Virus record (IMG/VR): IMGVR_UViG_3300050035_000086
Span: 1 to 64,000 of that record
From: a virus
Length of the DNA stretch: 64,000 nt
Reading direction: 5' to 3' (one strand)
Numbering within the stretch: the first letter of the stretch is position 1; each line of letters starts with the position of its first letter. Below are positions 1 to 20,316 of the stretch, in pieces. A model generated the notes under the pieces. The model was not told the DNA's origin. It was given only the letters and a program-made list of their open reading frames with translations, and made no database searches. The position numbers and the translations under genes are program-made.

Positions 1-172
1 TCAGTGACGTGTCATGATGTGTTGGCTGTCGCCACAAGAGTCTGACCTAAGAGCCCGATTCCAGCCTCGAAGCAATTTGATCTGAAAGACCGCGACACCT
101 GCGGCAGCGTTCCGAAGTTGATCGACTCGGGACGAGTGGTGCGACGGCGGGGAGAGACCACGCTGCTATTTT

Positions 173-248
173 GTGGGTTGAGCTAGTATGGTTATAGCGA
201 TCCGTTGAAGCCGGATAGAAATCCGTTCGATTCGGATAACCCGCACCA
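173..248 (+). tRNA. tRNA-Phe(GAA)
   Basis: Acceptor GTGGGTT/AACCCGC, anticodon arm ATCCG-ttGAAgc-CGGAT, T-loop TTCGATT, encoded CCA. Confidence 0.85.
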
Positions 249-249
249 T

Positions 250-325
250 CAGGGTATAGTGTAGGCTGCTAACATCCCGCGCCTGGAACGCGGTGTCCGA
301 GGTTGAAATCCTCGTACCCTGACCA
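250..325 (+). tRNA. tRNA-Pro(TGG), C33
   Basis: Acceptor CAGGGTA/TACCCTG, anticodon arm CCGCG-ccTGGaa-CGCGG, CCA end. Confidence 0.8.
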
Positions 326-333
326 AGTTTAAC

Positions 334-408
334 GGCCCTGTAGTATAACGAACAGAACATCGGTCTACGAAACCGAAGATCGCAGTTTAAGTCTGCGCGG
401 GGCTACCA
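334..408 (+). tRNA. tRNA-Arg(ACG)
   Basis: Anticodon arm TCGGT-ctACGaa-ACCGA, acceptor GGCCCTG/CGGGGCT, CCA end. Confidence 0.85.
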
Positions 409-414
409 AGTTTT

Positions 415-488
415 GCCGGGTTCAGTTAGTGGCAGGCTGTCTGATTCCAAACCAGACTACGTGGGTTCGATTCCTACACTCGGTGCCA
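415..488 (+). tRNA. tRNA-Trp(CCA)
   Basis: Loop ttCCAaa, T-arm GTGGG-TTCGATT-CCTAC, discriminator G, CCA end. Confidence 0.8.
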
Positions 489-493
489 TTTTC

Positions 494-571
494 GCCAGTG
501 AAGCTCATAAGGATGAGCAAGCCTCTCATAAAGGCGAGGAAGCTACGGTTCGAGTCCGGCGACTGGCACCA
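494..571 (+). tRNA. tRNA with CAT anticodon (Met or Ile2)
   Basis: GCCT-ctCATaa-AGGC arm, GCCAGT/ACTGGC acceptor, TTCGAGT T-loop, CCA; some stem mismatches. Confidence 0.7.
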
Positions 572-577
572 AGTTTT

Positions 578-671
578 GGGCGATAGCATCGGCTGTGCGG
601 GGAACCCTTATAAAGTTCCGAAAGCGCCAGATTAGCGCAACGGTCGGGATCGACACCCGAGTCGCCTACCA
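578..671 (+). tRNA. Atypical long-variable-arm tRNA with TAT anticodon (identity uncertain)
   Basis: Acceptor GGGCGAT/GTCGCCT, short D-arm, loop ctTATaa, variable hairpin GCGC-cagatta-GCGC, T-arm TCGGG-atcgaca-CCCGA, CCA. Confidence 0.7.
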
Positions 672-672
672 C

Positions 673-749
673 GGGTCGTAAGCATTGATGGTCAGATGCA
701 CCCGACTCTTAATCGGAAGAGCAGGATTCGAGTTCCTGACGACCCACCA
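673..749 (+). tRNA. tRNA-Lys(CTT)
   Basis: CCGA-ctCTTaa-TCGG arm, GGGTCGT/ACGACCC acceptor, CCA. Confidence 0.85.
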
Positions 750-801
750 ATCTTAAAGGAAATTGCAATGCGAAAATGCGAAGACAAATCGGATAAACAA
801 C

Positions 802-877
802 GGGGTCGTCGCATAGAGGCAACTGCAACGAACTTTTAATTCGAAAGACGTGAGTTCGAATCTCACCGGCCCCACCA
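802..877 (+). tRNA. tRNA-Lys(TTT)
   Basis: CGAA-ctTTTaa-TTCG arm, GTGAG-TTCGAAT-CTCAC T-arm, CCA. Confidence 0.85.
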
Positions 878-881
878 TTTT

Positions 882-957
882 GGCCCCTTAGCTCAGCGAA
901 CAGAGCAGTCCGTTTCTACCGGAAAGGTCGAGAGTCTGAATCTCTCAGGGGTCCCCA
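882..957 (+). tRNA. tRNA-Arg(TCT)
   Basis: TCCG-ttTCTac-CGGA arm, GGCCCCT/AGGGGTC acceptor, GCTC D-arm, CCA. Confidence 0.8.
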
Positions 958-963
958 AGTTTT

Positions 964-1042
964 GACCCCGTATCTCCCTCGTTTCCTAAACGAGAAAGAG
1001 TAAAAGGAAATGATGCCAGTTCGATTCTGGTCGGGGTTCCCA
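964..1042 (+). tRNA. D-armless tRNA-Arg(CCT)-like gene
   Basis: Acceptor GACCCCG/CGGGGTT, anticodon arm CTCGT-ttCCTaa-ACGAG only 7 nt after acceptor, T-arm GCCAG-TTCGATT-CTGGT, CCA. Confidence 0.7.
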
Positions 1043-1045
1043 ATT

Positions 1046-1122
1046 GCCGCCGTACCGGTTTGGATTCCGAATCCAAGGGCCGTAGATGAATCAGGCAGGT
1101 TTGAATCCTGTCGGCGGCTCCA
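1046..1122 (+). tRNA. D-armless tRNA-Arg(CCG)-like gene
   Basis: Acceptor GCCGCCG/CGGCGGC, anticodon arm TTGGA-ttCCGaa-TCCAA 7 nt after acceptor, T-arm GCAGG-TTTGAAT-CCTGT, CCA. Confidence 0.7.
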
Positions 1123-1127
1123 GTTTT

Positions 1128-1205
1128 GCCGGGTTGGTGTGAGTGGTCTAAACCGTTTCCCCTACAAGGAAAATTTCGCTGGTTCAAATCCAGCACCCGG
1201 TACCA
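1128..1205 (+). tRNA. tRNA-Val(TAC), C33
   Basis: TTTCC-ccTACaa-GGAAA arm, GCTGG-TTCAAAT-CCAGC T-arm, CCA. Confidence 0.8.
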
Positions 1206-1210
1206 TTTAT

Positions 1211-1284
1211 GGGCGACTCGTCCAATGATAGGACCCTCCCCCGATTAGGGAGATATTGCGGTTTGAGTCCGTGGTCGCCTACCA
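1211..1284 (+). tRNA. tRNA-Ile(GAT), C33/T37
   Basis: CTCCC-ccGATta-GGGAG arm, GGGCGAC/GTCGCCT acceptor, CCA. Confidence 0.75.
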
Positions 1285-1289
1285 AGTTT

Positions 1290-1363
1290 GCGCGGTTGGT
1301 ATATTGCTTGTGCCCTGGTCCTCCAAACCAGAGAAAGGGGTCGAATTCCCCTACTGCGCTCCA
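1290..1363 (+). tRNA. tRNA-Gly(TCC), C33
   Basis: CTGGT-ccTCCaa-ACCAG arm, GCGCGGT/ACTGCGC acceptor, discriminator T, CCA. Confidence 0.8.
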
Positions 1364-1464
1364 TCTTAGTCCAGATAATGGACGCCCATCGAGACTCCGT
1401 TTGAGTCCGCGAAGTACAGTGGGGCCGTCGCCCCAAAACAACTAACCCCACAAAGGATAAACAC

Positions 1465-2097
1465 ATGGCATCTCAAGATACTTCTATCGGTTACGCAAAC
1501 GGATTGTTTGTTCAGTCCATCACCACTGGAACAGAAACTGCTCTCCTTGTTCCCGCAACGGCTGGAATTTTTCCCGGACTTCCCGGCCCTGATCAGCCTG
1601 CTAGCACTGGCCTAGATATCGGCGTTCCCCCGGATGTTCAGTTCGGTGTGTGGGACGGACACCCGTTCAAGGTGCTCGTAGCTGGTAAGATCAATACAGG
1701 CGCTTCGATCACGTTCCTCGCCAATCTGTATTACGTGCCCGCCGCTATCGCCACTGCCCAGACCGCCGCTACTTTGGCAAACGATACAGTTGTTGTGTCA
1801 AACGCAGCGTCTGCTGCTTTCTCTGGGGCCGGTAACTTTGTTACGGAAGCAGAGTTCTTGTGGGATTCTGTTTCTAAGAAGTTGGTTGGTTTCGTGACAG
1901 CTAGTCAGGTAAACGGCGTTAACATCGCTGCCAACTCTGGAACCGCCGGAACTAACGTGGCAACCTCTGTTGTTACAGTAACATACACCGCCGGAACGAC
2001 CCCAAATCCGTTGAACTTCATTCCTTCGTTTACCTTTGGCACGGCAAACGCGGCGAACACTGTACAGTTGACGGAGTTCACTATTACTCGCGCCTAA
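1465..2097 (+). CDS. Putative virion structural protein (beta-rich; paralog of 24794-25483)
   Basis: RBS AAAGGA, T/A/G-rich 210 aa, shared motifs with 24794 ORF (FLWDSVSKKLVG vs LIWDAVSGKLNG; NAANTV vs GAANTI). Confidence 0.6.
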   Translation: MASQDTSIGYANGLFVQSITTGTETALLVPATAGIFPGLPGPDQPASTGLDIGVPPDVQFGVWDGHPFKVLVAGKINTGASITFLANLYYVPAAIATAQTAATLANDTVVVSNAASAAFSGAGNFVTEAEFLWDSVSKKLVGFVTASQVNGVNIAANSGTAGTNVATSVVTVTYTAGTTPNPLNFIPSFTFGTANAANTVQLTEFTITRA

Positions 2098-2107
2098 TAA
2101 CAACCCA

Positions 2108-2127
2108 CGGGGGTCTTCGGACCCCCG
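2108..2127 (+). terminator. Stable cUUCGg hairpin (terminator or transcript stabiliser)
   Basis: CGGGGGTC-TTCG-GACCCCCG just after the stop of 1465-2097; no clear U-tract. Confidence 0.45.
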
Positions 2128-2139
2128 ACTGGAGACCAA

Positions 2140-2361
2140 ATGGACACCTTCATTGAAGCAGTATGCGGCGTTCTATTTGTTCTAGCGGTTCTGTTCGCGG
2201 TTGATCGGAGTCTTTGGATCAAGGAAATCGAGACCGACTTGAACAACTTTTTGGGCGATTCTTTAGCTGCTCGTGATATGGCTGAAGATTCAGTTCGAGT
2301 ACACTATCAAGCACAAGCTAGTGCTATTAAAGCACTTATCAGAAAACATTTCAAGCTGTAG
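2140..2361 (+). CDS. Small membrane-anchored hypothetical protein
   Basis: RBS GGAG, N-terminal hydrophobic helix. Confidence 0.6.
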   Translation: MDTFIEAVCGVLFVLAVLFAVDRSLWIKEIETDLNNFLGDSLAARDMAEDSVRVHYQAQASAIKALIRKHFKL

Positions 2362-2369
2362 AGGAATAC

Positions 2370-2702
2370 ATGGCGAACTCACTTAATACGCTGCCTGCGG
2401 TCATTGACACAGATATTACTTCGTGGAGGACTGCCTCCGGTTATTTACAAGGAGTTCGAGTTATAAAGATCACCCTGGCGGTGGGGGCGAGTGCTGCTTC
2501 CTCCGCTGGGGTTATTTCTATTACAGCCCCCTCTGATAACTCCTTGCTTTGTTACCCAATGCTCGTTCCTGCTGGTCAACCTGCTTACACCGTTTTGTAC
2601 AACGAAAACCAGGACGTCTCCGGAGTCGAGACCTGGAGAGACTTTGCGGTTACAGGACTGACCGCTACTGGCACAAGACTGTTTGTCTGGTACAAGGTAT
2701 AG
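2370..2702 (+). CDS. Hypothetical (putative small structural) protein
   Basis: RBS GAGGA, 110 aa, beta-strand-like composition. Confidence 0.6.
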   Translation: MANSLNTLPAVIDTDITSWRTASGYLQGVRVIKITLAVGASAASSAGVISITAPSDNSLLCYPMLVPAGQPAYTVLYNENQDVSGVETWRDFAVTGLTATGTRLFVWYKV

Positions 2703-2707
2703 TCCAG

Positions 2708-4144
2708 ATGAAAAAACTTCTTTTGTTTCTCTTTGTTCTCGCTCTTGCCAGTCCATTATCTGGACAAGTTCCTGTGTTTCCGCAGGCGGCTGCGACCGCC
2801 ACCAGCATCTCTGGAGGAGGGGCGGGGGCTCAGCCCTACCAAACAGCCGCTAGTACGACCTCCTTTGTCTATCCGGCAACCGACGCAAATATGCTCACGA
2901 TGGACCTAAACCGCACCGACAGCTATACGGAACGCGGCACAATCGAGTGGCCCTACAAGAACCTTTCCACGCTGGTCATCCCAAGCACGGGATTAGCGTC
3001 GATCTTCTCCAGTCCAAATGCTTCTTATTCAAACCCTACCGCCGTTACTCTCCCCGCAATTCCCATCACGATATACGGCAACAATTCGACGTGGACTCCG
3101 ACAGGTGGGCTTACCGTCGCGGCTAAGATCATTTCCTACGATTTGATCGACGGCGCGGCTGTGACATACAACTACGCGGGTACTGAGCGTAGCGAGAAGC
3201 ATGGCGGGGCATTTCTCGGAAACGTCAATCTTACTCAAGGGTATCTTCATGCGTTCGGCACGAATCTAAGCGGAAACAGCAACACTTTCACGGTAGGCGG
3301 GGCTTCGACCGCCGCGTTGCTTTATGGAGAGGCAATTACCGGAAGCCAGAAGATTACATCGGGAGGTCCGGGGGCGTTAATTGCCCTGTACAACCCAAAC
3401 ATGACTAAGTCGAGCGGCTATAACGTCGATATGACCTCTGGTGGCCAGTTGCTTTTGAGTGGCGCACTGCTGAACACGGTTGCGGGAACCGCGAACATAT
3501 ATCTTCCGACAGCCAATACGTTGTCAACTGTCCACGCAATCAGCGGCCTCATTGTTGGAACGGGAACCGGCGTCAACTGCGTAAATGGCACGACTACCTA
3601 CGTGGTCTATGGGTTTAACCTCGCTCCGATCACGAATTGCACCCTTGTTCCCGGCTACCAGGGGCCGACAGCTTTCCAAGGGGCAATATCCGTACCAGCG
3701 GCAACGGGAATCTCTAGCGTAACAACCGGAACAGCGGCTAGTGCTGGATATGTCGGGCAGGTTCTTTCCTCAAAGATTTCTAGCGGTTCGGCAGTATCCG
3801 AATCAACCGGGGCCACAGTAAACGTCACGAGCTTGACGCTTACGGCGGGCGATTGGGACGTTGAGGGTTCGGTGGTTTTCAAGCCATCAAGTGTGACTAT
3901 TCCGTCTGGATACAACGCGTGGATAGGAATCAATTCGACATCTGTCACGATTCCCTCTGATGGTACCGAAGTGGCTGTCACGCCTGGAACCGAATCTAAT
4001 CAAAGCTCTGGTTTTGGGGGATCAATTCCAAGACAGATTTATAACGTGTCAACTTCCACGACGGTTTATCTTGTTGCGCAATCCAACTTTACGGCAGGCT
4101 CTATGGGAGTTTATGGATACCTGACGGCGCGGAGAGTTCACTAA
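2708..4144 (+). CDS. Fibre/appendage-like protein with N-terminal signal-peptide-like sequence
   Basis: Likely start ATG 2708 (MKKLLLFLFVLALASPLSGQ); Ser/Thr/Gly-rich; C-terminal 'VTSLTLTAGDWDVEG...LTARRVH' fibre-tip-like domain. Confidence 0.6.
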   Translation: MKKLLLFLFVLALASPLSGQVPVFPQAAATATSISGGGAGAQPYQTAASTTSFVYPATDANMLTMDLNRTDSYTERGTIEWPYKNLSTLVIPSTGLASIFSSPNASYSNPTAVTLPAIPITIYGNNSTWTPTGGLTVAAKIISYDLIDGAAVTYNYAGTERSEKHGGAFLGNVNLTQGYLHAFGTNLSGNSNTFTVGGASTAALLYGEAITGSQKITSGGPGALIALYNPNMTKSSGYNVDMTSGGQLLLSGALLNTVAGTANIYLPTANTLSTVHAISGLIVGTGTGVNCVNGTTTYVVYGFNLAPITNCTLVPGYQGPTAFQGAISVPAATGISSVTTGTAASAGYVGQVLSSKISSGSAVSESTGATVNVTSLTLTAGDWDVEGSVVFKPSSVTIPSGYNAWIGINSTSVTIPSDGTEVAVTPGTESNQSSGFGGSIPRQIYNVSTSTTVYLVAQSNFTAGSMGVYGYLTARRVH

Positions 4145-4168
4145 CCTAAGATTTAAGAAAGGTACAAA

Positions 4169-4348
4169 ATGAAGAATGATTCGAAGATCGAAAAGAAGTC
4201 CTCGAAAGTAGCGGCGAAGTCTGCTAAGAAGTCTGAGAAGGCGGAAGAGAAGGCCGAGAAGAAAATCGGCTCCGTGAAGATAAAAATCAAGGCCAAAGCC
4301 TCGACTCCTGAGCAGGCCAAGAGTATGCTGAAGAAAGCAATCAAGTAA
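4169..4348 (+). CDS. Small Lys-rich basic protein (59 aa, not in ORF track)
   Basis: RBS AAAGG; MKNDSKIEKKSSKVAAKSAKKSEKAEEKAEKKIGSVKIKIKAKASTPEQAKSMLKKAIK*. Confidence 0.7.
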   Translation: MKNDSKIEKKSSKVAAKSAKKSEKAEEKAEKKIGSVKIKIKAKASTPEQAKSMLKKAIK

Positions 4349-4383
4349 TTTAACCCGTCCATTATCTGGACAAAGGAATAATC

Positions 4384-4710
4384 ATGGCAGAGTCAAGAGC
4401 CAAATCCGGCATGGGTGGAAAGTCCGGAAAGAAATCTTCCAAAAAGTCGGGTCACATTCATGAGACCCATATCCGCCACTACAAGAGCGGCGGGCACGAA
4501 GTAACCCACCACTACAAAGATGACGCCGGAAATATTACCCCAGGTGATCCGGATATGATGGCGGACAAAGCGGCCCTTATGGCACACCTTCAGAATACGA
4601 TTCCCGACAATGGATCAGCGCAAGCAGCCCCCACAGGACCTCCTCAAGCCGCTGATGCCTCCCAACAGCAAGTAGCTCCTTCGCAAGCTCAAGCCCCTCA
4701 AGGTATGTAA
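4384..4710 (+). CDS. Hypothetical protein (basic/His-rich N-terminus)
   Basis: RBS AAAGGA, 108 aa. Confidence 0.65.
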   Translation: MAESRAKSGMGGKSGKKSSKKSGHIHETHIRHYKSGGHEVTHHYKDDAGNITPGDPDMMADKAALMAHLQNTIPDNGSAQAAPTGPPQAADASQQQVAPSQAQAPQGM

Positions 4711-5397
4711 ATGACACTCGCACACAAATTGACGGCAGCGGCGGCAATCGTTCTACTCGTGCTTTTGGTAGTTGGCGGAATTGCGTGGAGACAGGACCAT
4801 AAAGCCCTGTCACAATCTAAGGCGGTTGAATCTGCACAAAAACCAATTATTGCGCAAGCGACTGCTGACAAGGTGGTGACGACCTCCGATCTTACCAAAG
4901 CTCTGGCCGCGATTCAGCAGCAAAGAACCGTAGTAGTTACTGTCCCGCAAGCCGCCGCCGCAATCGCCCAGGCTATTCCAAATCTTCCTCAGCAAGTCCA
5001 AGTTCAAAACGTACCCGCTACGGCAACGACTCCAGAATCCCAAAGCCTAGTCATTCCCCAAGCCGATATTCCGGCCTTTCAAAAATACAAGTTAGATTGC
5101 GATGAATCGAACGCAAAACTACTGGCTTGTGCCAAGAACGCTGTTGATGACAAGACTATCCTAACTGCGACTGAGAAAGAGCGTGATTCTTGGAAACAAA
5201 CTGCCCAAGGCGGAACCTTCTGGACACGTCTCGGATCTGGGTTGAAACACTCAGGGTGCGGAGCGGCGGGAGGGTTGGTTGGCGTAGAAACTGCCCAATC
5301 TAGAAACGCTACTCCAATGACTGGTATTACCGCTGGGGCAGCAACTTTTGGAGGGTGCGAAGTTTTATCTTACTTTTTAGGGAGACGCCACAAATGA
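4711..5397 (+). CDS. Membrane-anchored coiled-coil protein, possible spanin-like
   Basis: N-terminal TM helix then helical Ala/Gln-rich region; adjacent to holin-like ORF. Confidence 0.45.
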   Translation: MTLAHKLTAAAAIVLLVLLVVGGIAWRQDHKALSQSKAVESAQKPIIAQATADKVVTTSDLTKALAAIQQQRTVVVTVPQAAAAIAQAIPNLPQQVQVQNVPATATTPESQSLVIPQADIPAFQKYKLDCDESNAKLLACAKNAVDDKTILTATEKERDSWKQTAQGGTFWTRLGSGLKHSGCGAAGGLVGVETAQSRNATPMTGITAGAATFGGCEVLSYFLGRRHK

Positions 5398-5711
5398 ATG
5401 GTAATTGGGCGGCTGGTTTTTTAAGGTCGCAACTCTCAGACAAAGATGGAACTGTTAGCAACACCCGAGTCCTGTTAGCTCTGGTTGTTAGTCATATACT
5501 AGCTTGGATCAGCGCTCTAGTTTGTCTATACGCTTGGTTTACTTTCAAGACACACACCCCCGTTACGATGACCGATATTGTGACATTTTTGGGGTCTGTT
5601 ACTGTATTCGCTACGTCTCTCTGCGGGACGTTGCAACTCATCAAAACCGGCGGAGACGCCGTTAACAACCGAGCGCCGAATGCTCCTCCTCAGATTCTGC
5701 CGCCCGCATAG
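5394..5711 (+). CDS. Two-TM membrane protein, putative holin
   Basis: Start ATG 5394 overlaps previous stop; two hydrophobic segments after 'SNTRVL'. Confidence 0.5.
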   Translation: MNGNWAAGFLRSQLSDKDGTVSNTRVLLALVVSHILAWISALVCLYAWFTFKTHTPVTMTDIVTFLGSVTVFATSLCGTLQLIKTGGDAVNNRAPNAPPQILPPA

Positions 5712-5720
5712 GAGATTCAA

Positions 5721-5855
5721 ATGAGTTTTGTAATCACAGCAGTAGTTGCTTTTACCGCTGGAGTAGTTCTTACCCTTTTCTACCGTAAACAGGTCGAGAA
5801 GAAGCTCCACGACGAAAAGAACGCAATCCTCGCCGAAGTCAAGAACAAAATCTAA
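5721..5855 (+). CDS. Small single-TM protein (44 aa, not in ORF track)
   Basis: RBS AGGAG; MSFVITAVVAFTAGVVLTLFYRKQVEKKLHDEKNAILAEVKNKI*. Confidence 0.6.
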   Translation: MSFVITAVVAFTAGVVLTLFYRKQVEKKLHDEKNAILAEVKNKI

Positions 5856-5876
5856 TAACCCCTAGAGGGAACTGAT

Positions 5877-6083
5877 TTGACTTTCGAAGTTCTGGAAAGA
5901 CTCAGATTGTTTGTGGGCGGTCACCGGCAAAAATCGTTGATGGCCGCGCAAAATTCTCGGCTTAATGGATACAAGTCAGTTGCCTTAGAGCACGAGAATG
6001 AAGCGGCACTAGCTGCGGTAATTCTTCAAGATTTAGCGAACGAAAAAGGAACTAGTTATGCCAATCCGAAAACCAACTACTAA
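5877..6083 (+). CDS. Hypothetical protein
   Basis: TTG start with GAGGG RBS, fills gap in operon. Confidence 0.45.
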   Translation: MTFEVLERLRLFVGGHRQKSLMAAQNSRLNGYKSVALEHENEAALAAVILQDLANEKGTSYANPKTNY

Positions 6084-17673: not shown

Positions 17674-20316
17674 ATGAGTTACTCACCAGCATCAATCGTG
17701 ACTTCGGGCGCATTGCCCAACCTCGTAGCTATTCACTAAAATCTTGGTGAATTCAAACTGTTCTAAATCGGCGAAAATCTTCTTGACAAGGTCTGCTAGG
17801 TGTGGTAGACTATAGTTATCGAATAAAGAAAACGCCGAGGAAACCGTGAAAGAGAAAACCAAAAGTTATATGGCTGGGATTCTAGATGCAGAAGGTTGCC
17901 TCCGAATCGCCACCCACAAACGAGGCAACAAAACCTACTACGAACCCAAGGTCTATTTGAGTAACAAATCAAAGGCCGTGATGCAGTGGTCGGTCCTACA
18001 TTTCGGGGGAAGTTTCGTCCGAAATGTAAACAACAAAGCAGGGGAAGATTGGTTCATTTGGTATCTTCAATCATTTCCCACCGTTGTTAGTTTCCTCAAA
18101 ACTATTCTGCCCTACTTGAAGTACAAGAGGGAGCAAGCTGAAACTCTTATTGAGTTCATTGAGAACAGAGAAAATCTGTCCGACAACCAAAAGAACGAGT
18201 ATGTTCTGAAACTCAAAGAGATGAAGCAACACGGGTCCGTAACGACTGAAACGAACAGCAGCTATCTAAAAGCAGAACCAGCATACCTAGCCGGATTCTT
18301 TGATGGCAAAGGTTGTGTTCGGGTCAATAAGACTCCGATGAAAAACACAACCGCCTACCATCTAATTGTATCTATTGCCAACAACGACCGATCTGTTTTA
18401 GATTCTTGTAAAGAACTCTATGGCGGAGATGTCAGAGCCAAAGGGAAAAGAAATTGCTTCTCTTGGAGTTTATTCTCCAAAGCAAGCATTGAAAAATTCC
18501 TCGTGGATAGCCTTCCGTATCTTGTAGTTAAAAGAGACGAGGCGTTGGCGGCACTAGAATACGTTCAACTAAGACGAGCACAATGCCCAGCAAAACGCGA
18601 AGCCTTGTATCTTCGGTTGATAGCTTTAAAGAAGCTGAAGACACAGTCTGAACTGCATAGTGATATGCAGAGCGCCCCAGCAGAGATGCTGACGGCCTAA
18701 AACACACTGATGAACGTGAAGCAATTCCTAACCTGAAGGCACAAACTCCCTTCCTCAGCATGACGAAGCAGCGTCCGCTGCCCCTCCGTCAGGGAAACCA
18801 AATTCAGTGAACAATATTGCTGAATCCAAATCCGGCTATATCGGTGGACAACTCTCTGAGTCAATACCGAGGGAAGACTGGGAAACCAGAACCCGTAGAG
18901 GCTAATACGCCGGACAGTCCATTATTTGGACTGAAGATAGAGTCCGAGCTATGGGGTGACCTATAGAGCGACCTTGTGGTGACGCAAGAGAGGCGAAAGC
19001 CTAGTGACCCGAAAGGGCATTTCCAAAACAAGACTGTCTTCACCTACGCTCTGCTTGCCGCTAACCTTAATCAGGCTGCGGAAGGCACAGTCGGATCTCC
19101 TATCAGTGAATCCAGCAATAAAATTGTCGCGACCATCGGGCAATATGCTGATTTCATTAATAGTTCCGACCTTGCCCTGGACGTTGCAATTGACGACCCG
19201 GGTCTCCTTCAGAACTTGGCAAACGAACTGAACTACCGCTTGGCTCTCACCCTCAACTCCCTCGTCCAGCTTACCGCTGACTCGGCTGTTGCGGTCGATA
19301 GCTTGGTAAACATCCAGCTTGCAAACGGCTCGTATCTGACTGCGAATAACATCCGGTCTGCTGCTCAGTCGCTGGTAAGCGTTAACGCTCGTCCTCTCGT
19401 GGACAACAAATTTGGTGGAATCATTCACCCTAATGTAGTCCGCGACGTGCTGAACGACACCTCCTTTAATGGTCTGACCGACATTATCAAGAGGTCTGAG
19501 GAAATGCGCAACATGCTGTTTGAACTGCCTAAGAATGAGGATACCATCTCGTTCGCCGGGGTCACGTTCAAACAGACATCCACTGCCCCCACTGTAACAA
19601 TCTCCGGAAATACCTATGGACTTGAAAGTCTAGTAGCCTGAAGAAGTAATTCTTCTTGAATCACGTCGCTAATTCGGTGGACATCTCTCAGAGACAATAC
19701 CGAGCCAAACCCAAGAAATTGGGAAGTGTGTAGAGAGCATAGACGACGCTCCTGAAAAGGATGATGATGTGCTCCGGCCTGTATGGCGACATACAGAGAC
19801 TGATAGAAATACTCAGTCCCGTCCAGATACTGGACGAGTAACAAAAGCGTACAATAGTTATATTTTCGGCGATGACGCAATCTTCTCCGTCTTCCTGGGG
19901 AAGAATCCAAACGATGGATCGAAGAACTATCAAATGGTAGCTTAGGGGAGTAATTCCCTTCGAACACACCGCTAATTCAGGGAACAACTCTTCGGAGTCA
20001 ATCCTGAGCGAAGCCCGAAAGGGAACGTGCAGAGGCCATACACGGTGCCCCTCGAAAGAGGGTGATGAGATGGTCCGCTCTATACGGCGACGTATAGAGG
20101 TGGGCGGAACAAGAAACGACCCACCCTTGTCCAAATAATGGACATGTAACACAGAGGAAATTGTTCATACAGTCCGCGCCAGAACAAGGCAGCGTGAGTG
20201 ATCCGGCCCGTCAAATCGGCGGGTGGGTCAGTTACAACGTGAGGTATACCAATACTTTGCGTCCGGGCTCGACAATGACGCTTCGTCGTTTGCAGTCGGA
20301 AACATCATCCAGCTAA
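17674..20316 (+). CDS. Major capsid protein, spliced: join(17674-17737,18710-18808,19037-19617,19850-19930,20158-20316), 327 aa
   Basis: Exons sum to 984 nt in frame: MSYSPASIVTSGALPNLVAIH-Y-EREAIPNLKAQTPFLSMTKQRPLPLRQGNQIQ-F-FTYALL...QYADFINSSD...IIHPNVVRDV...SGNTY-YNSYIFGDDAIFSVFLG...KNY-KLFIQ...DPARQIGGWVSY...SETSSS*; resembles N4-gp56-like capsid proteins; RBS AAAGGAG. Confidence 0.88.
17783..17811 (+). promoter_or_regulatory. Intron-internal sigma70 promoter for the endonuclease ORF
   Basis: TTGACA-17 bp-TAGACT with TG extension, 35 nt upstream of GTG 17846. Confidence 0.7.
17846..18700 (+). CDS. Intron-encoded double-motif LAGLIDADG homing endonuclease/maturase
   Basis: Motifs YMAGILDAEG and YLAGFFDGKG, each followed by 'LPYLxxKREQA/KRDEA' helices. 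Confidence 0.88.
   Translation: MKEKTKSYMAGILDAEGCLRIATHKRGNKTYYEPKVYLSNKSKAVMQWSVLHFGGSFVRNVNNKAGEDWFIWYLQSFPTVVSFLKTILPYLKYKREQAETLIEFIENRENLSDNQKNEYVLKLKEMKQHGSVTTETNSSYLKAEPAYLAGFFDGKGCVRVNKTPMKNTTAYHLIVSIANNDRSVLDSCKELYGGDVRAKGKRNCFSWSLFSKASIEKFLVDSLPYLVVKRDEALAALEYVQLRRAQCPAKREALYLRLIALKKLKTQSELHSDMQSAPAEMLTA
18809..19036 (+). mobile_element. Group I intron 2 (228 nt, ORF-less)
   Basis: P1 ATTCAGT/GCTGAAT U-G; P3 CCGGC/GCCGG; J8/7-P7 GAAGATAGAGTCC; terminal G19036; removal restores QIQ-F-FTY. Confidence 0.88.
19618..19849 (+). mobile_element. Group I intron 3 (232 nt, ORF-less)
   Basis: Exon ends CTAT pairing with GTAG; P3 CGTCG/CGACG; P7 GAGCA/TGCTC; P8 TCCT-gaaa-AGGA; terminal G19849. 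Confidence 0.83.
19931..20157 (+). mobile_element. Group I intron 4 (227 nt, ORF-less)
   Basis: Exon ends CTAT pairing with GTAG; P3 CACCG/CGGTG; P7 GGCCA/TGGTC; P8 CCCTC-gaaa-GAGGG; terminal G20157; similar to intron 3. Confidence 0.83.

What the first reader, a model, noticed from the sequence alone, without database searches (positions are those of the whole stretch)
964..1122. Two adjacent D-armless tRNA-Arg genes (CCT and CCG) with the same non-canonical architecture
Seen: both have intact acceptor, anticodon and T arms plus CCA, but only 7 nt where the D-arm belongs and a 17-20 nt segment after the anticodon arm that can pair back with that linker (CGGT/GCCG; CTC/GAG). Their sequences differ while the layout is shared, which argues against random decay. 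Established: D-armless tRNAs are typical of animal mitochondria, and bacterial ArgRS normally uses D-loop A20. Inference: a distinct tRNA-like class that decodes AGG/CGG, acts as a decoy for anticodon nucleases, or has a non-translational role.
Basis: partly seen in the sequence, partly recalled or inferred. Interest (0 to 1): 0.7.

Follow-up and report, generated by a model that had tools for sequence, protein, structure and literature searches.

The report
Rewired non-cloverleaf phage arginine tRNAs
Two neighbouring genes in this peat phage's tRNA cluster are very probably working arginine tRNAs with every normal core part present but joined in a different order, so they are not cloverleaves, which contradicts the textbook rule for tRNAs used by bacteria.

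Summary
Window 964-1042 (anticodon CCT) and 1046-1122 (CCG) have normal acceptor, anticodon and T arms plus an encoded CCA, but no D hairpin. ARAGORN and the Rfam tRNA model miss both.

They are not decaying genes. I found at least 60 distinct sequences with the same layout in about 40 viral contigs, five MAG contigs and one cultured phage. All four helices covary, including a 3-bp helix that brackets the anticodon arm.

The segment after that helix reads like a D-loop: U13-A14-R15-N-N-G18-G19-A20...A21-N48. Its R15 covaries with the base just before the T stem, as the 15:48 pair does. In the window's CCG gene an A19/U56 double change replaces G19/C56.

So nothing is missing. Block 10-21 has moved from before to after the anticodon arm, and lengths stay at 76-79 nt.

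Nearly all anticodons are arginine. Rewired and canonical arginine anticodons within one array almost never coincide (1 overlap against 14.9 expected), and relatives carry canonical genes in the same slots. I read this as working decoders charged by host ArgRS.

Expression, charging and 3D fold are untested. I found no paper describing this. This scan's earlier notes reached the same reading on other phages.

The parts
964..1042 (+). Rewired tRNA-Arg(CCU) gene, 79 nt including the encoded CCA
   Evidence: Sequence. Scores 89.1 bits with R1 and 81.6 bits with R2. Orthologues with compensatory changes at L028:2844-2919 and L044:896-971.
1046..1122 (+). Rewired tRNA-Arg(CCG) gene, 77 nt including the encoded CCA
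   Evidence: Sequence. Scores 89.2 bits with R1 and 78.9 bits with R2. Orthologues at L029:2313-2390 and L030:2603-2678.
974..976 (+). Gene 1, X helix 5' strand (CTC). Proposed equivalent of D-stem positions 23-25. It runs through C977 (position 26) into the anticodon stem.
   Evidence: Pairs with 998-1000. The family helix is 97.8% paired, with four pair types at the middle pair, which also has the highest mutual information of all column pairs.
998..1000 (+). Gene 1, X helix 3' strand (GAG). Proposed equivalent of D-stem positions 10-12.
1001..1014 (+). Gene 1, D-loop-like segment: U13 A14 A15 A A G18 G19 A20 ... A21(1013) U48(1014)
   Evidence: In the 60 distinct family rows the T-A after the X helix is invariant, G18 is 60/60, G19 55/60, A20 59/60 and A21 59/60. 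Some of these positions were fixed by my search pattern, but they hold in the 16 rows that do not match the pattern. A15 pairs with U48 as in the family-wide covariation.
978..994 (+). Gene 1 anticodon arm: 5-bp stem and loop UUCCUAA (U33, anticodon CCU 985-987, A37, A38)
   Evidence: Sequence. All five pairs covary in the family.
1056..1058 (+). Gene 2, X helix 5' strand (CGG). T1059 can add a U-G pair with G1079.
   Evidence: Pairs with 1080-1082.
1080..1082 (+). Gene 2, X helix 3' strand (CCG)
1083..1094 (+). Gene 2, D-loop-like segment: U13 A14 G15 A U G18 A19 A20 ... A21(1093) G48(1094)
   Evidence: G15 with G48 fits the family rule (A15 with U48; G15 with G48 or C48). A1089 ('19') coincides with T1102 at T-loop position 56. 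Only this row and L094:6312 have U56, and both have A19.
1060..1076 (+). Gene 2 anticodon arm: 5-bp stem and loop UUCCGAA (anticodon CCG 1067-1069)
   Evidence: Sequence.
1015..1031 (+). Gene 1 T arm (GCCAG UUCGAUU CUGGU)
   Evidence: Sequence. A canonical T loop. Stem pairs covary.
1095..1111 (+). Gene 2 T arm (GCAGG UUUGAAU CCUGU), with U at position 56
   Evidence: Sequence.
173..1366 (+). The surrounding tRNA gene array (Phe, Pro, Arg-ACG, Trp, Met-like, Ile-UAU-like, Lys, Lys, Arg-UCU, the two rewired genes, Val, Ile, Gly). The rewired genes sit in it with the same short (A)GTTTT-type spacers as the canonical genes.
   Evidence: The same gene order, with canonical Arg-CCT and Arg-CCG, is found in L005, L016, L017, L025 and L026.

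Best explanation
Both genes are working arginine tRNAs, reading AGG and CGG, with a rewired core.

Compared with a canonical tRNA, the block holding the D-stem 5' strand and the D-loop (positions 10-21) has moved from between positions 9 and 22 to between positions 46 and 48. The order is now: 1-9, then 22-26, then the anticodon arm 27-43, then 44-46, then 10-21, then 48, then the T arm and acceptor 3' strand.

The D stem still forms (helix X), but it now brackets the anticodon arm and is continuous with it. This reproduces the normal coaxial stack of D stem on anticodon stem. The D-loop then leads straight into the T stem.

The usual core contacts all have counterparts: U8-A14, R15-N48, G18/G19 with the T loop, and A21. 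The molecule should therefore still fold into an L shape of normal size (76-79 nt).

Inferred steps, none shown: the genes are transcribed with the rest of the array and processed at the same spacers. Host ArgRS charges them through the A20 equivalent plus C35 and U/G36, since the contig encodes no ArgRS. They are then used to translate the phage's AGG and CGG codons.

Why the rewired form is kept is open. The likeliest advantage is escape from a host enzyme that recognises or cuts the normal tRNA-Arg core. Neutral equivalence is also possible.
For: Family and structure (shown):
- There are 65 model hits, 60 of them distinct, all with the same layout.
- All four helices covary. The structure is 97.9% paired, against 66% in shuffles and 32-42% in slid controls.
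- An unbiased mutual-information ranking puts 15 of the 20 proposed pairs on top. The X-helix middle pair ranks first. The 15:48-like pair ranks 16th: A-U 41, G-G 13, G-C 6, with no exceptions.
- 19:56-like covariation: the only two rows with U56 are the only two with a true A19. One of them is the window's gene 2.
- The D-loop spacing is exact: A14, R15, two nucleotides, G18, G19, A20. An A two bases before the T stem is conserved in 59 of 60 rows. Lengths are mostly 76-79 nt, so nothing is lost.

Function (indirect):
- Anticodons are CCT, CCG, TCT and ACG, plus one TAT. C35 is present in 60 of 60 rows and the A20 equivalent in 59 of 60. These match the bacterial arginine identity set of A20, C35 and U/G36 (PMC9976931).
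- Relatives carry canonical Arg-CCT and Arg-CCG in exactly these slots.
- In 32 arrays, rewired and canonical arginine anticodons overlap once. Shuffling gives 14.9 +/- 2.1, and none of 20000 shuffles goes as low.
- The window has no canonical CCT or CCG gene, yet uses CGG for 14% and AGG for 11% of its arginine codons.
- Acceptor stem, T loop, U33, A37 and the encoded CCA are all canonical, and the spacers match those of neighbouring tRNAs.
- An engineered tRNA with no D arm at all works with E. coli EF-Tu and ribosomes (PMC11551756).
- The contig encodes RtcB and no ArgRS.
Against: - There is no direct evidence of expression, processing, charging or decoding. The metatranscriptome contigs gave no usable cover of the two genes.
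- The 3D equivalence is inferred from sequence motifs and three tertiary-type covariations. It has not been modelled or probed.
- Most family members were retrieved with a pattern that fixes TAYC, TCCKAA, GTAR, GRA and GTTCGA, so invariance at those positions is partly by construction. The independent support is the 16 rows that do not match the pattern and the eight members found by synteny.
- Related sequences inflate covariation counts.
- Under the proposed mapping the 10:25 pair is mostly C-G, whereas the usual pair is G-C.
- The discriminators of the two window genes are C and U. A or G is the more common arginine discriminator.
- No selective advantage of the rewiring has been shown.
Confidence: 0.7

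Rival explanations
1. They are working arginine tRNAs but truly D-armless. The anticodon stem is merely lengthened, and the 3' segment is a floppy enlarged variable loop. The molecule would adopt a Y or boomerang shape like mitochondrial tRNA-Ser(AGY), not a normal L.
For: The secondary structure alone (three-way junction, extended anticodon hairpin) resembles mitochondrial D-armless tRNAs. The E. coli machinery tolerates a tRNA without a D arm.
Against: A floppy loop would not keep UA-R-NN-GGA at fixed spacing. It would not keep an A two bases before the T stem in 59 of 60 rows. It would not covary with the base before the T stem or with T-loop position 56.
Confidence: 0.1
2. They are not decoders. 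They act as tRNA-shaped decoys or sponges for a host tRNA-Arg nuclease or another tRNA-binding defence protein, or they have some other non-translational role.
For: Phage tRNAs are known counter-measures to tRNA-cleaving defences (PMC10264068 and PMC11555353, listed). The phage encodes the RNA ligase RtcB, which suggests it meets tRNA damage. Nothing here shows aminoacylation.
Against: A decoy should sit beside a working tRNA of the same anticodon. Instead the rewired genes take the slot of the canonical gene, and the two anticodon sets are complementary (1 overlap against 14.9 expected). The 7-bp acceptor stem, encoded CCA, A20 equivalent and C35 are all conserved, which is what a charged tRNA needs.
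Confidence: 0.12
3. They are decaying pseudogenes left by rearrangements in a fast-changing tRNA array.
For: Decay does occur in these arrays. L002 keeps only a 5' remnant of tRNA-Arg(CCG) in front of its Val gene. A 53-nt fragment sits at L084:2767-2819.
Against: There are sixty distinct sequences with compensatory changes in every helix, spread over many contigs. Orthologues differ mainly by double changes in stems.
Confidence: 0.02

Closest known systems
Canonical class I bacterial and phage tRNA-Arg (Rfam RF00005). Examples: this window's tRNA-Arg(ACG) at 334-408 and tRNA-Arg(UCU) at 882-957, and the canonical Arg-CCT and Arg-CCG of relative L005 at 3692-3767 and 3772-3846.
   Same: Same array slot. 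Same acceptor, anticodon and T arms. Same length, encoded CCA and arginine anticodons with C35. Counterparts exist for U8, A14, R15:N48, G18, G19, A20 and A21.
   Different: There is no D hairpin between positions 9 and 26. The D-stem 5' strand and the D-loop lie 3' of the anticodon arm, so the secondary structure is a three-way junction and not a cloverleaf. ARAGORN and the Rfam model miss both genes.
Mitochondrial D-armless tRNAs: mammalian mt-tRNA-Ser(AGY) and nematode mt-tRNA-Ser (PMC7609411, PMC9427863)
   Same: No D hairpin, a short connector after the acceptor stem, and an extended anticodon helix.
   Different: The mitochondrial tRNAs have lost the D-loop and its contacts with the T loop. 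They are shorter, fold into a Y or flexible shape, and need adapted partner proteins. The phage tRNAs keep a full-length D-loop motif and a canonical T loop, are of normal length, and are found in phages of bacteria.
Engineered D-arm-less 'mini HisT' used by evolved E. coli (PMC11551756)
   Same: It shows that bacterial EF-Tu, the ribosome and a synthetase can use a non-cloverleaf tRNA.
   Different: It is artificial, has bases 11-25 deleted, and is unstable unless pnp is mutated. The phage family is natural and has rearranged its core parts, not deleted them.
Class II tRNAs, tRNA-Sec and allo-tRNAs with long variable arms (PMC5389517)
   Same: Extra nucleotides lie between the anticodon arm and the T arm. 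Gene 2 gives a weak tRNA-Sec hit.
   Different: In those tRNAs the variable arm is a self-contained hairpin and a normal D arm is present. Here the segment pairs with the 5' connector and carries the D-loop motif.
Permuted tRNA genes of Cyanidioschyzon merolae (from my own knowledge, not checked here)
   Same: The order of tRNA parts in the gene is changed.
   Different: There the whole gene is circularly permuted and processing restores a normal cloverleaf. Here the acceptor ends are in the normal order and the mature RNA itself would be rewired.

Membership tests
Canonical cloverleaf tRNA (Rfam RF00005) | 7-bp acceptor stem, discriminator base, 3' CCA | tested here: met
   Seven of seven pairs in both genes. 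99.3% paired with covariation in the family.
Canonical cloverleaf tRNA (Rfam RF00005) | 5-bp anticodon stem and 7-nt loop with U33 and a purine at 37 | tested here: met
   Loops are UUCCUAA and UUCCGAA. U33 and A37 are present in 60 of 60 rows.
Canonical cloverleaf tRNA (Rfam RF00005) | 5-bp T stem with a GTTCRANYC-type loop | tested here: met
   T stem 100% paired.
Canonical cloverleaf tRNA (Rfam RF00005) | D stem-loop hairpin between positions 9 and 26 | tested here: not met
   Only 7 nt lie between the acceptor and anticodon stems. No ARAGORN call. ARAGORN in mitochondrial or relaxed mode gives wrong boundaries or a wrong anticodon.
Canonical cloverleaf tRNA (Rfam RF00005) | Score at or above the family gathering threshold (29 bits) | tested here: not met
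   No RF00005 hit over 964-1122 even at E up to 10.
Bacterial arginine tRNA identity (A20, C35, U/G36, A/G73; PMC9976931) | C35 and U36 or G36 | tested here: met
   C986/T987 and C1068/G1069. C35 is present in 60 of 60 rows and position 36 is T or G in all 60.
Bacterial arginine tRNA identity (A20, C35, U/G36, A/G73; PMC9976931) | A20 in the D-loop | tested here: inconclusive
   An A directly after the G18/G19-like pair is present in 59 of 60 rows (A1008 and A1090). Whether it occupies the spatial position of A20 is inferred, not shown.
Bacterial arginine tRNA identity (A20, C35, U/G36, A/G73; PMC9976931) | Aminoacylation by ArgRS | not testable with these tools
   Needs a charging assay.
Mitochondrial-type D-armless tRNA | The D arm is replaced by a short connector, and the D-loop elements and D/T-loop contacts are lost | tested here: not met
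   A D-loop-like motif is conserved, with 15:48-like and 19:56-like covariation.
Class II tRNA / tRNA-Sec (RF01852) | A self-pairing variable-arm hairpin plus a normal or extended D arm, with a score at or above 47 bits | tested here: not met
   25.8 bits for gene 2 and no hit for gene 1. There is no hairpin within 995-1014 or 1077-1094.
   Both genes score 79-89 bits, against 38 bits or less for canonical tRNAs.

The most novel reading that the evidence does not exclude
Phages of bacteria naturally use a class of tRNAs that are not cloverleaves. The core has been re-threaded (block 10-21 moved behind the anticodon arm) while every tertiary contact of the L shape is kept. Selection keeps this form because it lets the phage's arginine tRNAs escape a host factor, such as a tRNA-Arg-directed nuclease or a decay or modification enzyme, that reads the normal D-arm connectivity.
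Probability: 0.25. Interest if true: 0.92.

Novelty: new variant of a known kind. Interest (0 to 1): 0.8.

Why it matters
A 2024 paper states that all known bacterial tRNAs are cloverleaves and that arm size is the only structural variation known in cytosolic tRNAs (PMC11551756). A natural, widespread family with a re-threaded core that is apparently used with bacterial ribosomes would overturn that statement.

It would also have practical and conceptual consequences:
- It would show that the L shape can be reached through a different strand topology.
- It would expose a blind spot in tRNA finders. The genes are unannotated, or mis-annotated as tRNA-Ser in a cultured Alishewanella phage.
- It would offer a ready-made scaffold for orthogonal tRNA engineering.
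- It would give a concrete test case for how ArgRS, RNase P, EF-Tu and anti-phage tRNA nucleases read the tRNA core.

Tried and rejected
- blastn of window 1-6000 and of gene 2 against the cultured-phage collection gave no match. An exact 31-mer of gene 2 found nothing in viral contigs.
- ARAGORN in mitochondrial mode, and with lowered thresholds, gave wrong boundaries or a wrong anticodon (Ala-GGC, or a 93-nt 'Arg'). It is no use as a detector here.
- The minimum-energy fold of gene 1 prefers a 9-bp stem, UCGUUUCCU with AGGAAAUGA. That stem arises because the CCU anticodon happens to complement the AGGA of the D-loop motif. It is impossible for the CCG, UCU and ACG members and is not the covarying structure, so I rejected it.
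- A canonical-position D stem for gene 1 (TCTC 973-976 with GAGA 992-995) would destroy the anticodon stem and leaves no anticodon arm downstream. Rejected by inspection.
- A tree of the 46 nt shared by 64 rewired and 82 canonical Arg tRNAs, with the anticodon masked, is unresolved. There are 21 state changes against 48 in shuffles, and the largest pure rewired clade has 7 tips. Single versus multiple origin cannot be decided from it.
- Four peat metatranscriptome runs were laid on 100-2600. Their contigs cover the neighbouring 210-aa ORF. The two genes are touched only by two depth-2 contigs of a relative, so there is no verdict on expression.
- No ArgRS gene was found in the 92,952-base record. 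The record is estimated 86% complete, so a gene in the missing part is not excluded.
- The 210-aa neighbour protein occurs only beside the arrays of close relatives, so it is not linked to the rewired genes.

Full report
**What is there**

The window is the first 64 kb of a 92,952-base IMG/VR virus record, found in peat and freshwater metagenomes. It opens with a tRNA gene array at 173-1366 on the + strand.

Two tRNA-sized units lie between tRNA-Arg(UCU) (882-957) and tRNA-Val (1128-1205), at 964-1042 and 1046-1122. ARAGORN does not call them. Rfam's tRNA model does not hit them even at E up to 10. Unit 2 gives only a tRNA-Sec hit of 25.8 bits against a cut-off of 47.

Each unit has:
- a perfect 7-bp acceptor stem;
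- a 5-bp anticodon stem with a 7-nt loop (UUCCUAA and UUCCGAA);
- a standard T arm, a discriminator base and an encoded CCA.

Only 7 nt lie where the D arm should be, and 20 or 18 nt lie between the anticodon and T arms. The two units are separated from their neighbours by the same short (A)GTTTT-type spacers as the canonical genes.

**Relatives**

The 210-aa ORF just downstream (1465-2097) led to related viral and metagenome contigs. Their arrays have the same gene order: Lys, Lys, Arg-UCU, Arg-CCU, Arg-CCG, Val, Ile, Gly.

In many of them the CCU and CCG slots hold ordinary cloverleaf tRNAs (L004, L005, L016, L017, L019, L025, L026, L031). In others, one or both slots hold the same odd layout as in the window (L028 both, L029 CCG, L030 CCG, L044 CCU, L050 both). 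The odd genes therefore occupy the slots of canonical tRNA-Arg genes.

**A large family**

A covariance model of five such sequences (R1) separates them cleanly. Family members score 45-93 bits, and every canonical tRNA scores 38 bits or less.

A degenerate DNA pattern taken from the alignment found 37 viral contigs. It also found five contigs in 185,579 species genomes. All five lie inside dense tRNA arrays of MAG contigs, three of them binned as Acidobacteriota.

In total there are 65 model hits, 60 of them distinct. A second model added a few more. One cultured phage carries a member: Alishewanella phage vB_AspM_Slicko01, OQ508956.1 17417-17495. It has anticodon UCU, is annotated as 'tRNA-Ser', and scores 58.8 bits.

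**Structure**

On the 60 distinct rows, all four helices covary, and 97.9% of cells are paired. Shuffles give 66% and slid controls give 32-42%.

The new helix X joins three bases before the anticodon arm to three bases after it. It is CTC/GAG in unit 1 and CGG/CCG in unit 2. In the family it is 97.8% paired, and its middle pair has four pair types (GC 35, AU 9, UA 9, CG 7).

I also ranked every column pair by mutual information, without assuming a structure. The 15 highest are all proposed pairs, and the X-helix middle pair is first.

**The segment after helix X is a D-loop**

In every member, helix X is followed by U-A-R, then two nucleotides, then G-G-A, then a short variable stretch, then A-N and the T stem. 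This matches the spacing of positions 13, 14, 15, 16, 17, 18, 19, 20 ... 21 of a normal D-loop, followed by position 48.

Three observations support that reading.
- **15:48-like pair.** The R covaries perfectly with the base just before the T stem: A with U in 41 rows, G with G in 13, and G with C in 6. A-U and G-C are the usual forms of the 15:48 Levitt pair and G-G is a rarer known one.
- **19:56-like pair.** The only two rows with U instead of C at T-loop position 56 are the only two with a true A at '19'. One of them is the window's unit 2 (A1089 with T1102).
- **Other core bases.** U8 and A9 are invariant, and an A two bases before the T stem (the A21 equivalent) is present in 59 of 60 rows.

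Some of these positions were fixed by my search pattern. They also hold in the 16 rows that do not match the pattern, and in the members found by synteny.

**Interpretation of the layout**

Nothing is missing. Lengths are mostly 76-79 nt including CCA, about the size of an ordinary tRNA.

The parts are in a new order: 1-9, then 22-26, then the anticodon arm, then 44-46, then 10-21, then 48, then the T arm. The strand in front of the anticodon arm runs straight into the anticodon stem, as positions 22-26 do in a normal tRNA. The strand behind it plays the role of positions 10-12(13) and carries the D-loop.

The helices are nested and form a three-way junction. This is not a cloverleaf, yet every core contact of the L shape has a counterpart. 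The mapping is an inference from motif spacing and covariation.

**Function**

The anticodons in the family are CCT, CCG, TCT and ACG, all arginine. There is one exception, TAT at L089:1211, which is one mutation away from TCT.

C35 is invariant, position 36 is U or G, and the A20 equivalent is present in 59 of 60 rows. These are the bacterial arginine identity elements, of which A20 is the main one for E. coli ArgRS (PMC9976931).

Within 32 arrays that hold both kinds of gene, the rewired and canonical arginine anticodons coincide only once. Shuffling gives 14.9 +/- 2.1, and none of 20000 shuffles goes as low. Relatedness between arrays inflates this figure, but the distribution is mosaic.

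The window itself has canonical Arg-ACG and Arg-UCU, and only the rewired genes for CCU and CCG. It uses CGG for 14% and AGG for 11% of its arginine codons.

This is the pattern expected of isoacceptors that replace canonical genes, not of decoys that accompany them. The record encodes no ArgRS, so charging would be by the host enzyme. It does encode the RNA ligase RtcB, which fits a phage that meets tRNA-damaging defences.

An engineered tRNA with no D arm at all is accepted by E. coli HisRS, EF-Tu and the ribosome (PMC11551756). Use of a far less drastic variant is therefore plausible.

**What is not shown**

- Expression, end processing, charging and decoding are untested. Contigs from peat metatranscriptome libraries cover the neighbouring ORF but give no usable cover of the two genes.
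- Whether the rewiring arose once is undecided, because the tree of 46 shared nucleotides is unresolved.
- Why the rewired form is kept is unknown. Escape from a host factor that reads the normal core is my preferred guess, by analogy with phage tRNAs that evade anticodon nucleases (PMC10264068, PMC11555353). It is only a guess.

**Comparison with what is known**

I found no paper describing a natural non-cloverleaf tRNA in bacteria or phages. The 2020 review of non-canonical tRNAs lists D-armless forms only in mitochondria. A 2024 paper states that all known bacterial tRNAs are cloverleaves.

Mitochondrial D-armless tRNAs have lost the D-loop, whereas these have kept it. Class II tRNAs and tRNA-Sec have a self-pairing variable arm plus a D arm, which these do not.

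I had reached the reading above (note) before I looked at this scan's earlier notes. Those notes show that other agents made the same finding on other phages, including T4-like, Streptomyces, Acinetobacter and jumbo E. coli phages. Those notes are unchecked and are not independent evidence, but they agree with this report. One of them says that part of a related claim later fell, without saying which part.

**Verdict**

These are a real and conserved RNA class, very probably working arginine tRNAs with a re-threaded core. They are new relative to the literature I could search, though this scan has met the class before.

Noticed in passing
window 578-671: A 94-nt tRNA-like gene with a long variable arm and a UAU-containing anticodon loop (CCUUAUAAA between GGAAC and GUUCC). 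ARAGORN misses it here but calls its homologues tRNA-Ile(tat) in L031, L098 and L100. Conserved copies are at L005:3355-3443 and L016:513-602. A class II-shaped tRNA-Ile(UAU) would itself be unusual.
   Followed up: partly
window 494-571: A weak tRNA (Rfam 29.8 bits, anticodon CAU) with an irregular T-arm region, not called by ARAGORN. Similar CAU genes were picked up only by my own scan in L013, L029 and L031.
   Followed up: no
window 1290-1366: tRNA-Gly(UCC) with C in place of U33 (loop CCUCCAA). It scores 37.8 bits in Rfam only in E-value mode and is missed by ARAGORN. The scan's note e1-5967593 lists other C33 tRNAs in this array.
   Followed up: no
window 18799-18966 and 19921-20097: Two group I intron hits above the Rfam threshold (51 and 63.8 bits), in the region where another note of this scan describes a capsid gene split by introns.
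   Followed up: no
contig 71887-72972, - strand (outside the window; L104 and L105): An RtcB RNA ligase gene (Pfam PF01139, 157.9 and 62.4 bits, 394-aa frame). It fits tRNA repair during infection.
   Followed up: partly
L002:4497-4515: In the closest relative that has an array, only the 5' end of a tRNA-Arg(CCG)-like gene (GGTCGTATAGTTCAAGTGG) survives, just in front of tRNA-Val. This is an example of decay in the same slot.
   Followed up: partly
L089:1211-1290: A family member with anticodon UAU (loop CUUAUGA), one mutation from UCU. It lacks C35, so either its identity has changed or it is inactive. The rewired genes read in this locus end in CTA, not CCA.
   Followed up: no
L084:2767-2819: A 53-nt tRNA-like element with acceptor stem, T arm and CCA but no anticodon arm.
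   Followed up: no
L102:2996-3074 (OQ508956.1 17417-17495): Cultured Alishewanella phage vB_AspM_Slicko01 carries a member of the family with anticodon UCU, annotated as tRNA-Ser. In this subgroup (also L085:8096 and L060:1917) helix X is weaker or in a shifted register, which I did not resolve.
   Followed up: partly
window 1080-1130, as laid from run X17: A depth-2 contig from a peat metatranscriptome library matches 1080-1130. Upstream it continues into a different rewired Arg(CCG) sequence (CCGTATCGGCCACGTCTCCGAAGCGTGATA...), so a relative's copy is present in an RNA library. DNA carry-over is not excluded.
   Followed up: no
window 750-801: A 52-nt spacer between the two tRNA-Lys genes with no predicted structure (z = 0.07). 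It is the only long gap in the array.
   Followed up: partly
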